Source of the DNA: Podarcis gaigeae | Lineage: Eukaryota | Assembly: GCA_964106915.2 (NCBI GenBank) | Contig: OZ066918.1 | Length of the DNA: 64,000 bases | Direction: 5' to 3' (one strand) | In this document: positions 1-3,000 of the stretch, one piece after another | Numbering within the stretch: position 1 is the stretch's first letter | How the letters are laid out: every line of letters begins with the position of its first letter | Made by a program: the position numbers

Positions 1-3000
1 TCTTGTCTGGTCTGTTTCTCTTAAATAGATTGTATCCCTCCATTATTACATTCCAATCGTGGGACTTATCCCACCAGGTTTCAGTGATGCCTATTATGTC
101 ATATTTAGTTTGCTGTACCAAGAGCTGAAGCTCATCTTGTTTATTTCCCATGATTTGTGCATTAGTGTACAGACATTGAAGTCCATTAATCATTCCCCCG
201 TGCCTCTTATTTAAGGATTTTTTTCCTCCCACCACTAGGTCTGCGTGCTGTTTGCTCCACTTGGTCTATGACATTTGGATGATCATCTTCATCAATTGAT
301 AGACTCCTACCTTCAGGAGCACTGCCCTATGATATTCTTGTAAAGAAGCTGGTAAAATGTGGTCTTGACTATGCTACCACTCAGTGGATTTGTAACTGGC
401 TGACTGACCAAACCCAAAGGGTGCTCATCAATGGTTCCTCTTCATCCTGGAGAAGAGTGACTAGTGGGGTGCCACAGGGTTCTGTCTTGGGCCCGGTCTT
501 ATTCAACATCTTTATCAACGACTTGGATGATGGACTCAAGGGCATCCTGATCAAATTTGCAGATGACACCAAACTGGGAGGGGTGGCTAACACCCCAGAG
601 GACAGGATCACACTTCAAAACAACCTTGACAGATTAGAGAACTGGGCCAAAACAAACAAGATGAATTTTAACAGGGAGAAATGTAAAGTATTGCACTTGG
701 GCAAAAAAAATGAGAGGCACAAATACAAGATGGGTGACACCTGGCTTGAGAGCAGTACATGTGAAAAGGGTCTAGGAGTCTTGGTTGACCACAAACTTGA
801 CATGAGCCAACAGTGTGACACGGCAGCTAAAAAAGCCAATGCAATTCTGGGCTGCATCAATAGGAGTATAGCATCTAGATCAAGGGAAGTAATAGTGCCA
901 CTGTATTCTGCTCTGGTCAGACCTCACCTGGAGTACTGTGTCCAGTTCTGGGCACCACAGTTCAAGAAGGACACTGACAAACTGGAACGTGTCCAGAGAA
1001 GGGCAACCAAAATGGTCAAAGGCCTGGAAACGATGCCTTATGAGGAACGGCTAAGGGAGCTGGGCATGTTTAGCCTGGAGAAGAGGAGGTTAAGGGGTGA
1101 TATGATAGCCATGTTCAAATATATAAAAGGATGTCACATAGAGGAGGGAGAAAGGTTGTTTTCTGCTGCTCCAGAGAAGCGGACACAGAGCAATGGATCT
1201 AAACTATAAGAAAGAAGATTCCACCTAAACATTAGGAAGAACTTCCTGACAGTAAGAGCTGTTTGACAGTGGCATTTGCTGCCAAGGAGTGTGGTGGAGT
1301 CTCCTTCTTTGGAGGTCTTTAAGCAGAGGCTTGACAACCATATGTCAGGAGTGCTCTGATGGTGTTTCCTGCTTGGCAGGGGGTTGGACTCGATGGCCCT
1401 TGTGGTCTCTTCCAACTCTATGATTCTATGAAAAATTTCACCATACTCTCTCCACATACATGTCTTTAAAGCTAAATAAACCCAGTTCCTTTGGCCTTTC
1501 CTCGTGGGATTTGCCTTCTAGCCTATTTGCCATCTTTGTAGGTTGCCCAGAAATGTTTCCAATTTGTTCATCAGCTTTGCTACCTAGAAGATGTGGCAGC
1601 ATGCTTTCTTCCTCAGCATTACAGCTAATGCTGCTGACAATATTACATTATTTTGCTGCAACTTTCTATTTTTATGTATTTAACAAAATTTATATACTGC
1701 TTGATTGTTGTTGTTGTGTTTTTTTTATAAAAAAAAAACCTCTTAGCAGTTTAGAAAAACAGAAAATATAGCATTATATATATTATCAATAAAAACAATT
1801 TACTCCAGGTATTTAATAATATTTTAAAAATGATTTAAATCAACAGTAGCTAAAATGAAATCAAGCATGTATAACTTTAGACCCGCCTAAACAAAAATGT
1901 TTAAAACAAAAGCAGAAAATAGTACAGCAAAGATGTCTGCCTGGTGTTAATAGACAGGGAATTCCAAACTGTATGGTGACTTGTGTGGAATGAGTCTTAT
2001 GTGGCATCTGCAATAGTGCTAGTTCTGCAGATCAAACTGGTCCAAAGGGCATATATGGGGTAAGGCAGACCCTTAAGTAAACTGGTCCCAAGCTGCTAAT
2101 GGTTTTATATATTAACAATATACTAATGATATACTACTAATGGTAACACCTTGAACTTGGACCAATAGCAAATGGGCAACCTGTGCAGATATCTGAGCAG
2201 AGGTGTTATATAGTAACAGGTATCACTCCTCTCAGCAACTATGCTGCAGCATTCTGCACTAACTGTAGCTTCTGTAGAAAGGGAAGCCCCACAAAGAGTG
2301 CATTGCAGTAATCCAATATTGAAGCCATCAATGGCTGAACTAATGTGATCAAGCTCTGCTGGTCCAGAAATGATTGTAGCTGTGTCACCAGTCACAGCTG
2401 GTAAAAAGTGCTTCTAGCCACTGAGGTTACCTGGGGCTCCAGTGACAGGGATATGATATTTGCACACTTGAGTCTTCTTTGTTTGCATTTTACTTGGTCA
2501 GTTTTCACCATGTTGCTGTGTGCTAAGCTCTGAGGTTTATTAAGATTGTTTCTGGGGTGTTTGCCAGTTGTCCCAGTTTTGTATCAAAGGCTGGTGCAGA
2601 AGCGTTGGCCAATCTGTGCAATGTCCTCTTTCTCTTACAAGTCATGGTTGCTCAAGGCTTCTTCCTCTTTAGATGGAATAAAAGTCTATATAGCAACTGT
2701 TAATAAGGAAAGGTTTGGGTGTTTGAAAGGAACAGCCAATGAAAACTTCTGCCAATGCCTTAAGAATTTGGCAGGAAAGTGGTGAAATAGTACTGGAACA
2801 TAGGGAAGGGAAGTGACAAAGGAGATCTTATAGGAGGGTCAACAATGAGGCATGGACACTTTGCTTTGATTGTCCTGACAATTTTACCAACTTGAGTCTA
2901 AAACATCATGGAATACTCCAGGGACCTTCAAATGGTCTGCCCAGCACCCTGGCACTCTGGACAGCTAGAAATCAAGGACACATACTGTCAGTTTAGCTAG

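What the first reader, a model, noticed from the sequence alone, without database searches (positions are those of the whole stretch)
1..1431. Young CR1 LINE with an inverted 5' segment, matching twin-priming geometry in a non-L1 clade
Seen: 1-322 encodes the CR1 endonuclease N-terminus on the minus strand (open frame running off the window). It abuts, at ~323, a plus-strand CR1 segment that begins mid-RT (PYDILVKKL, just after the missing DFSKAFDKV motif) and runs to an intact (ATTCTATG)n-type tail. Both halves look similarly well preserved. Established: twin-primed mammalian L1 insertions place the most 5' point of the inverted piece at the junction with the non-inverted 3' piece, as here. 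Inference: this is one insertion event. 5' inversions are an L1 hallmark and, to my knowledge, little documented for CR1, which lacks a poly(A) tail.
Basis: partly seen in the sequence, partly recalled or inferred. Interest (0 to 1): 0.72.

Follow-up and report, generated by a model that had tools for sequence, protein, structure and literature searches.

The report
Head-to-head CR1 fragments, lizard genome
Two broken pieces of the same young lizard jumping gene (CR1) sit nose to nose, which could be one insertion with a flipped front half, a pattern so far tied to mammalian L1, but the sequence that would prove it lies just outside the window.

Summary
Window 1-323 (minus strand) is the start of CR1 ORF2: 21 codons upstream of the annotated start, then codons 1-86, running off the window. 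Window 323/325-1431 (plus strand) is ORF2 codons 603/604-947, the 3'UTR and a TCTATGAT-type tail. Both match the same Podarcis muralis CR1 ORF2 (93% and 96-97% identity). They meet with no filler and at most 2 nt of shared bases. Copy-specific damage is similar: 4 of 106 codons plus one frameshift, against 9 of 344 codons including two stops (Fisher p 0.52). The plus piece did not insert into a longer minus copy, because the right flank is an old, unrelated CR1 fragment.

The interpretation cannot be decided here. Twin priming predicts that the minus copy stops about 1.55 kb left of the window, near codon 603, with no tail. A nested or second insertion predicts that it runs about 2.65 kb to its own tail. 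No tool reaches that flank. Published assays saw 5' inversions essentially only for human L1, and none for the L2-clade element ZfL2-1. My estimate is single-event 5' inversion about 0.4 and two insertions about 0.45. One undecided locus is of modest interest.

The parts
1..323 (-). 5'-truncated CR1 piece. It starts 20 codons upstream of the annotated ORF2 Met (codon 6 of the longer MGEGD... ORF2 form) and runs to ORF2 aa 86, off the left edge of the window. It includes the first ~54 residues of the APE-type endonuclease domain.
   Evidence: BLASTP/tblastn to P0072 aa 11-86, 71/76 identical. Frame 207..326 matches P0125 aa 45-81, 35/37 identical, including 21/21 upstream residues. Upstream alignment. 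Domain limits of P0072.
218..224 (-). T7 run (A7 on the coding strand), apparently one base longer than in the relatives. It shifts the ORF2 frame near codon 14.
   Evidence: Frame 207..326 reads ...GGRKKILK*, and frame 2..265 continues ...KKSLNKRHGG. P0072, P0125 and P0156 read straight through (sequence).
258..260 (-). GTG (Val) where every related protein that covers this position has the annotated ORF2 Met1
323..324 (.). Head-to-head junction. Minus-strand homology is certain up to 323 and plus-strand homology is certain from 325. T323 and G324 could belong to either piece, giving 0-2 nt of microhomology and no filler.
   Evidence: Codon-level reading against P0125 (…GD|SAPEG) and P0072 (…DKV|PHD). 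No DNA consensus was available, so the exact base is inferred.
325..1359 (+). 5'-truncated CR1 piece: ORF2 aa 604-947 and the natural stop (1357-1359). It starts 88 positions into the RVT_1 domain, just after DFSKAFDKV. Premature stops at 1207-1209 (Gln898) and 1264-1266 (Arg917).
1360..1431 (+). CR1 3'UTR. A hairpin is predicted at 1381-1418 (GGGUUGGA...UCCAACUC). The octamer tail TCTATGAT TCTATGA lies at 1417-1431. There is no poly(A).
   Evidence: Sequence. Fold: -22.6 kcal/mol, z -1.5, with 15 of 200 shuffles folding at least as well, so the hairpin is not significant on energy alone. That a hairpin plus octamer repeat is a CR1 hallmark is recalled, not taken from a call.
1465..1608 (-). 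Old, diverged CR1 ORF2 fragment (about aa 815-855, ...RATKxVKGLExKSYEERLxELGLFS...). This is the DNA into which the young CR1 material inserted. 1432-1464 is unassigned.
   Evidence: blastx of 1432-2400 against all fetched proteins gave 187 rows. The best was E 1.1e-4 at 55% over 31 aa, and the longest spanned window 1465-1608.

Best explanation
A dead composite of two 5'-truncated fragments of one young lacertid CR1 family, joined 5' end to 5' end. My best single explanation is one retrotransposition event with a 5' inversion of the twin-priming type.

Inferred sequence of events:
1. The CR1 RNA was reverse-transcribed from the first nick, starting at its octamer tail (window 1431) and reaching ORF2 codon ~604.
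2. The other DNA end of the same break primed internally on the same RNA near codon 603 and copied upstream to 20 codons before the annotated ORF2 start.
3. The two cDNA 3' ends were joined with 0-2 nt of overlap at 323/324.

Shown: the identity, orientation and end points of the two pieces; the clean junction; the similar decay; and the old CR1 as target on the right. Inferred: that the pieces came from one RNA in one event. The composite has no function. Both reading frames are broken.
For: - Both pieces match the same P. muralis CR1 ORF2, P0072: aa 11-86 at 71/76 and aa 603-947 at 332/345.
- The minus piece is truly 5'-truncated inside CR1. Other copies (P0125, P0153, P0155) continue upstream with ...MGEGD, whereas the window switches to the plus piece.
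- The geometry matches the published description of twin priming: one end anneals to the RNA 3' terminus, the other anneals internally, and the two cDNAs then anneal at a short complementarity (PMC2912911, passage). The inverted piece comes from upstream of the direct piece, and their 5'-most points abut with no filler.
- Copy-specific changes are similar: 4 of 106 codons plus one frameshift, against 9 of 344 codons. Fisher p is 0.52, or 0.33 if the frameshift is counted.
- Both pieces carry non-P0072 variants that other copies share: T4/R6/K13 with P0125 and P0156, and C780/T839 with P0066 and P0078.
- Under the nested-insertion rival, the minus copy must be about 3 kb long. Only 5.2% (1,367 of 26,306) and 6.7% (1,743 of 25,884) of CR1 inserts over 500 bp exceed 2.5 kb in two other Podarcis genomes (PMC11303007, Table 1 passage). 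That rival also needs the minus copy to be the younger one, and it does not look younger.
- No other copy of this young family lies in the 64 kb, so local crowding does not explain the adjacency.
Against: - The defining end of the inverted piece and the target-site duplication lie outside the window and were not seen.
- In more than 200 characterised de novo LINE inserts, 5' inversions arose only with human L1 in human cells, plus one Nimb-2_DR insert in DT40 cells. ZfL2-1 (also called CR1-1_DR) gave none in either cell type. The authors argue that a ~5-nt overhang is too short to prime on the RNA (PMC4245944, passages).
- In Anolis, all truncated polymorphic LINE insertions were described as simple 5' truncations (PMC5389967, passage).
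- No fetched protein links the N-terminal variants (T4/R6/K13) to the C-terminal ones (C780/T839), so a shared subfamily is not shown.
- The counts of copy-specific changes are small and rest on only 4-10 reference proteins per column.
Confidence: 0.4

Rival explanations
1. Nested insertion. A plus-strand CR1 copy that once extended further 5' was hit, between ORF2 codons 602 and 604, by a second, ~3-kb minus-strand copy of the same family. The 5'-truncated end of that second copy now abuts codon 603/604. The rest of the plus copy lies beyond the minus copy's tail, off the window.
For: LINE-in-LINE nesting is common, and this spot already shows one layer of it: the young material sits inside an old CR1. 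At a 5' junction, a clean join with 0-2 nt of microhomology is also what ordinary 5' end joining gives (PMC4245944, passages). This needs no mechanism undocumented for CR1.
Against: It needs a rare long insert: about 5-7% of CR1 inserts over 500 bp exceed 2.5 kb in two Podarcis genomes. That insert must also land inside a same-family copy in the inverted orientation. The minus copy should be the younger one, yet it carries at least as many copy-specific changes per codon: 4/106 plus a frameshift, against 9/344 (not significant).
Confidence: 0.3
2. Two separate CR1 copies at one spot, each with its own 3' tail at the outer end. Either two RNAs were primed from the two ends of one break, or a second insertion landed exactly at the 5' boundary of the first.
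For: The visible part looks the same as in the other models. Synchronous L1 events are described for human tumours (bioRxiv 10.1101/2024.08.27.596794, title and start of abstract in search listings only).
Against: An independent hit at base-pair precision on a boundary is improbable. I see no target-site duplication for the plus piece alone...GAGCACTG on its left against AAAATTTC on its right. CR1 duplications can, however, be very short or absent.
Confidence: 0.15
3. Not an insertion product. Either a later rearrangement (local inversion or deletion with a breakpoint in one long CR1 copy) or an assembly mis-join at 323/324.
For: Young repeats at 96-97% identity to many copies are hard to assemble, and the window gives no read support either way.
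Against: The two sides of the junction share no homology that an assembler could collapse: endonuclease start against mid-RT, in opposite strands, with at most 2 nt of overlap. An inversion with both breakpoints inside one element is a special case, and it would leave CR1 ORF1 sequence to the left.
Confidence: 0.1

Closest known systems
5'-inverted L1 insertions made by twin priming (Ostertag and Kazazian 2001, known to me only from reference lists; mechanism as described in PMC2912911, passage)
   Same: Two pieces of one LINE lie in opposite orientation. The inverted piece comes from upstream of the direct piece. Their 5'-most points abut, with no filler and at most 2 nt of possible microhomology.
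   Different: The element is CR1 clade, with an octamer-repeat tail instead of poly(A). CR1-clade target-site duplications are short, similar to the 3-5 bp peak of L2 (PMC4245944, introduction passage). The far end of the inverted piece and the duplication were not seen, so membership is unproven.
Podarcis muralis CR1 ORF2 family (UniRef protein returned as P0072, a 90% cluster of 196 sequences; relatives P0066, P0073, P0074, P0078, P0121-P0125)
   Same: 93% (71/76) and 96% (332/345) amino-acid identity over the two pieces, with the same domain order: endonuclease 33-235, RT 515-731.
   Different: The window copy is in two inverted fragments. It lacks ORF1, ORF2 codons 87-602 (at least within the window) and an intact frame.
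ZfL2-1 (also called CR1-1_DR) and other non-L1 LINEs in retrotransposition assays (PMC4245944)
   Same: A two-ORF, non-poly(A) vertebrate LINE with short target-site duplications.
   Different: Those assays gave no 5' inversions for ZfL2-1 (passages). If this locus arose in one event, it would be a counter-example from a natural genome.
Ordinary nested LINE-in-LINE insertion
   Same: Two truncated copies abut, in a region that already holds an older CR1.
   Different: It would require the minus copy to have its own tail and the plus copy to resume beyond it. That is untested.

Membership tests
CR1-clade LINE (lacertid CR1 family of P0072) | ORF2 with an N-terminal APE-type endonuclease followed by a reverse transcriptase | tested here: met
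   The pieces align to P0072 aa 11-86 and 603-947. P0072 has Exo_endo_phos at 33-235 and RVT_1 at 515-731. RVT_1 is found directly in the plus piece, E 1.6e-17.
CR1-clade LINE (lacertid CR1 family of P0072) | 3' end with a hairpin and a short octamer repeat (ATTCTRTG type) and no poly(A). The hallmark is recalled. | tested here: met
   TCTATGAT TCTATGA lies at 1417-1431 with no A-run. A hairpin is predicted at 1381-1418, but its energy is not exceptional (z -1.5).
Twin-primed (5'-inverted) LINE insertion | Two pieces of one element in opposite orientation, with their 5'-most points joined and the inverted piece coming from upstream of the direct piece | tested here: met
   The minus piece starts 20 codons before the annotated ORF2 start, at window 323. 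The plus piece starts at codon 603/604, at window 323-325.
Twin-primed (5'-inverted) LINE insertion | The inverted piece ends, without a 3' tail of its own, at or near the coordinate where the direct piece begins (here ORF2 codon ~603) | not testable with these tools
   That end lies about 1.55 kb (or, if the feature is not met, about 2.65 kb) left of window position 1. No tool holds lizard genome DNA. No database protein is identical to the minus piece (best 93%), so no gene model for the locus could stand in.
Twin-primed (5'-inverted) LINE insertion | One target-site duplication flanking the whole composite | not testable with these tools
   Only the right flank (1432 onward) is in the window.
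Twin-primed (5'-inverted) LINE insertion | Both pieces come from one RNA: same subfamily and same age | tested here: inconclusive
   Copy-specific changes are 4/106 codons (plus a frameshift) against 9/344, Fisher p 0.52. Each piece shares variants with non-P0072 copies, but no fetched protein links the two sets.
Twin-primed (5'-inverted) LINE insertion | Junction without foreign filler, often with a few bases of microhomology | tested here: met
   At most one base (G324) is unassigned and 0-2 nt could be shared (one search read). The DNA consensus was not available, so the overlap is inferred from codons.
Nested insertion of one CR1 into another | The host copy resumes on the far side of the guest copy | tested here: not met
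   This was tested only for the version 'plus piece inserted into a longer minus copy'. CR1 sequence upstream of the minus piece (P0125 aa 1-44) is absent to the right of 1431 and anywhere else in the window: of 14 tblastn rows, 2 fall at the locus itself and the other 12 have E of 2 or more. The right flank is an old CR1 ORF2 fragment instead. The reverse version, minus copy inserted into a longer plus copy, is not testable here.

The most novel reading that the evidence does not exclude
A CR1-clade LINE, which has no poly(A) tail and makes only short target-site overhangs, can undergo twin priming in a natural germ line. That would produce a ~3-kb insertion whose first ~1.9 kb is inverted. 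It would show that 5' inversion is not an L1-specific or mammalian-host-specific outcome, and it would contradict the idea that a ~5-nt overhang is too short to prime on the RNA.
Probability: 0.4. Interest if true: 0.5.

Novelty: new member of a known kind. Interest (0 to 1): 0.3.

Why it matters
5' inversions are used as a signature of L1 biology. Cell-culture work concluded that they depend on features of L1 and of the host (PMC4245944). A proven CR1 case in a lizard would show that the second DNA end of a CR1 integration intermediate can also prime reverse transcription. That bears on how non-L1 LINEs complete their 5' ends. It also bears on repeat annotation: an inverted pair counted as two insertions inflates copy numbers and distorts age and length statistics in squamate genomes. 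On its own, this is one locus with the decisive end unseen, so for now it is a lead for a genome-wide count and not a result.

Tried and rejected
- Plus piece inserted into a longer minus copy: rejected. CR1 sequence upstream of the minus piece is not found right of 1431, and the right flank is an old CR1 ORF2 fragment.
- The 33 nt at 1432-1464 as a leftover of the minus copy's 5' end: none of the three minus-strand frames, read by eye, encodes ...NVGEGD, and one search found no match there.
- Other copies of the young family in the window, to build a DNA consensus: none. Only self hits and one 71-nt, 75% hit at 29520-29589.
- A gene model from this very locus that would show where the minus copy ends: none. 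Best identity to the minus piece was 93% among 31 hits from 55 candidates.
- Linking N-terminal and C-terminal subfamily variants: none of the 11 Podarcis proteins carries both variant sets.
- Literature. 'twin priming' plus 'CR1' gave 10 papers. I read passages in 6. In PMC5389967, PMC6007223 and PMC2718515 the phrase occurs only in the reference list, and in PMC4476161 I searched only for CR1 and non-L1. None reports a CR1 5' inversion. The other 4 were seen as listings only. A broader search (87 papers, 15 listed, titles and abstract starts only) showed none either.
- Papers not held: Ichiyanagi and Okada 2008 (Mol Biol Evol, on L1, L2, CR1 and RTE mobility pathways) and Ostertag and Kazazian 2001. 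The first may well address CR1 5' junctions. Supplements of PMC11303007 are closed and may hold per-family CR1 counts.
- One search was a badly framed search (128,616 papers) and gave nothing useful.
- A possible old CR1 split by an inversion (23306-23947 plus strand against 29276-30287 minus strand): dropped. The plus copy appears to run on toward its own 3' part.

Full report
What is there.

The window is vertebrate DNA with 42% G+C, CpG observed/expected of 0.18, and no N. The CR1 proteins it encodes are closest to Podarcis muralis. The 308-aa plus-strand frame at 283-1209 found five P. muralis proteins at 96-98% identity. Bird and turtle CR1 proteins matched at 49-69% (120 listed of 5,300 hits among 8,000 candidates). 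It is a lacertid lizard sequence or a close relative, not human.

The minus-strand piece.

The frame 2..265 is open for 88 aa and runs off the window. It matches P0072, a 947-aa P. muralis CR1 ORF2 that represents a 90% cluster of 196 sequences, at aa 11-86 with 71/76 identical, E 4e-50. P0072 has Exo_endo_phos at 33-235 and RVT_1 at 515-731. The window therefore holds the ORF2 start and the first ~54 residues of the endonuclease domain. The fragment alone is too short for Pfam.

A second minus frame (207..326) carries ORF2 aa 1-16 plus 21 upstream residues, [21 protein letters not shown]. These are 21/21 identical to another P. muralis copy, P0125. P0153, P0155 (Zootoca) and P0126 begin MGEGD or MGVGD just upstream of this stretch. 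The family's ORF2 probably starts 25 codons before the annotated Met, and the window piece begins at codon 6 of that longer form.

Other copies continue upstream where the window does not. The minus piece is therefore truly 5'-truncated at window 323.

Its defects are GTG in place of the annotated ATG (258-260), one extra base in a T7 run at 218-224 that shifts the frame near codon 14, and three further copy-specific substitutions: S36I, E45Q and Q80K. That is 4 of 106 codons. Three other differences from P0072 (T4, R6, K13) are shared with P0125 and with a P. lilfordi protein, P0156. They are subfamily variants, not decay.

The plus-strand piece.

tblastn aligns P0072 aa 603-947 to window 322-1356 with 332/345 identical. 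RVT_1 matches from profile position 88 of 205.

I compared the piece with the 4-10 P. muralis proteins that cover each column. Nine of 344 codons are copy-specific: H605Y, R632Q, D703N, D752G, A769T, R891Q, Q898stop, R917stop and N920H. One search lists 11 rows; I dropped the junction codon 603 and the natural stop. C780 and T839 are shared with P0066 and P0078.

After the natural stop (1357-1359) come a 72-nt 3'UTR and the tail TCTATGAT TCTATGA (1417-1431), with no poly(A). A hairpin is predicted at 1381-1418, but its energy is not exceptional (z -1.5).

The junction.

Minus-strand homology is certain to T323, the Ser codon AGT read from the minus strand. Plus-strand homology is certain from C325, the Pro604 codon. 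T323 and G324 fit both pieces if Val603 is GTG and the upstream Asp is GAC. So there is no filler and 0-2 nt of possible microhomology. This is read from codons, because no DNA consensus was available.

The surroundings.

To the right of the tail, 1465-1608 on the minus strand is an old, diverged CR1 ORF2 fragment of about aa 815-855 (187 rows, best E 1.1e-4). The young material therefore sits inside an older CR1.

CR1 sequence that lies upstream of the minus piece in other copies (P0125 aa 1-44) is not found right of 1431 or anywhere else in the window. This excludes the model in which the plus piece inserted into a longer minus copy.

No other copy of the young family is in the 64 kb. The other CR1 matches in the window are old.

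How it most likely arose.

Four readings remain.

(a) One event with a 5' inversion. The mechanism is described for L1. One DNA end anneals to the RNA 3' terminus, the other anneals internally on the same RNA, and the two cDNAs then anneal at a short complementarity (PMC2912911, passage). Everything visible fits: same family, opposite orientation, the inverted piece from upstream of the direct one, 5'-most points joined cleanly, and similar decay (4/106 against 9/344 codons, Fisher p 0.52, or 0.33 with the frameshift counted).

(b) A ~3-kb minus-strand copy inserted into a longer plus-strand copy at codon 603. This needs no new mechanism. It does need a rare long insert: in two other Podarcis genomes, 1,367 of 26,306 and 1,743 of 25,884 CR1 inserts over 500 bp exceed 2.5 kb (PMC11303007, Table 1 passage). 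That insert must land, inverted, inside a same-family copy. It also predicts that the minus copy is the younger one, and the counts do not suggest that.

(c) Two tailed copies at one break or boundary.

(d) A later rearrangement or a mis-join. The mis-join is unlikely, because the two sides share no homology that an assembler could collapse.

Against (a) stands the experimental record. Among more than 200 characterised de novo inserts, 5' inversions arose only with human L1 in human cells, plus one Nimb-2_DR insert. ZfL2-1 (also called CR1-1_DR) gave none, and the authors argue that its ~5-nt overhang is too short to prime (PMC4245944, passages). In Anolis, the truncated polymorphic LINE insertions were all described as plain 5' truncations (PMC5389967, passage).

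I weighed the rarity of both routes. This is my inference, using the Table 1 proportions and an unknown per-insertion inversion rate. I put (a) at about 0.4, (b) at 0.3, (c) at 0.15 and (d) at 0.1.

What would decide it.

The decisive sequence lies left of the window. Under (a), the minus copy stops about 1.55 kb out, near codon 603, without a tail, and the old CR1 resumes. Under (b) and (c), it runs about 2.65 kb to its own tail.

No database protein is identical to the minus piece (best 93%), so no gene model from the locus could stand in for the flank.

Comparison with what is known, and novelty.

The element is an ordinary member of a known, recently active lacertid CR1 family. The arrangement has the visible features of a twin-primed L1 insertion, but two defining features are untested, so I do not file it as one.

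I found no report of a CR1 5' inversion:
- 'twin priming' plus 'CR1' returned 10 papers. I read passages in 6 and saw listings for 4.
- A broader search listed 15 of 87 papers, by title and abstract start only.
- The most relevant paper, Ichiyanagi and Okada 2008, is not held, so the claim 'undocumented' stays open.

If reading (a) is right, this is a new member of a known kind of event, in a clade where assays suggested it does not happen. That would be of moderate interest to LINE specialists and useful for repeat annotation. As it stands, it is one undecided locus.

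Noticed in passing
window 23306-23989 (+), 24757-24975 (+), 29276-30287 (-): There are two older CR1 fragments. One is a plus-strand copy covering ORF2 aa 376 to about 607 at ~51% identity to P0072, with a weak continuation at aa ~806-880 (E 0.59). The other is a minus-strand copy covering aa 585-923 at 28-60% identity. 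The near-coincident break at aa 585-593 first suggested one element split by a ~6-kb inversion. The plus copy seems to continue toward its own 3' part, so they are probably separate old insertions.
   Followed up: partly
window 26746-26778, 28408-28440, 54652-54684: A 17-nt unit, TTCAGGTTAAGAACAGT, occurs as about 1.9 tandem copies at two places, and its reverse complement occurs at a third. It looks like the tail of one interspersed repeat family (SINE or LINE). Not identified.
   Followed up: no
window 258-323 (-) and proteins P0125, P0153, P0155, P0126: The annotated Met1 of the P. muralis CR1 ORF2 (P0072) is probably not the true start. Related models begin 25 codons upstream with MGEGD/MGVGD, and the stretch between is conserved from Podarcis to Zootoca.
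   Followed up: partly
protein P0066 (P. muralis, 1238 aa): This public gene model fuses a Gypsy-type polyprotein (RT, RNase H, integrase domains) to the CR1 ORF2 from about aa 465 onward. It is presumably a read-through of adjacent or nested retroelements and a reminder that the CR1 protein models in the database are not curated.
   Followed up: no
window 62506-62533 and 62658-62697: Simple repeats (TGC)9 and (GT)20 lie close together near the right end of the window.
   Followed up: no
window 1432-1464: The 33 nt between the CR1 tail and the recognisable start of the old CR1 fragment match nothing I tested. They may be a diverged or partly deleted part of the old CR1.
   Followed up: partly
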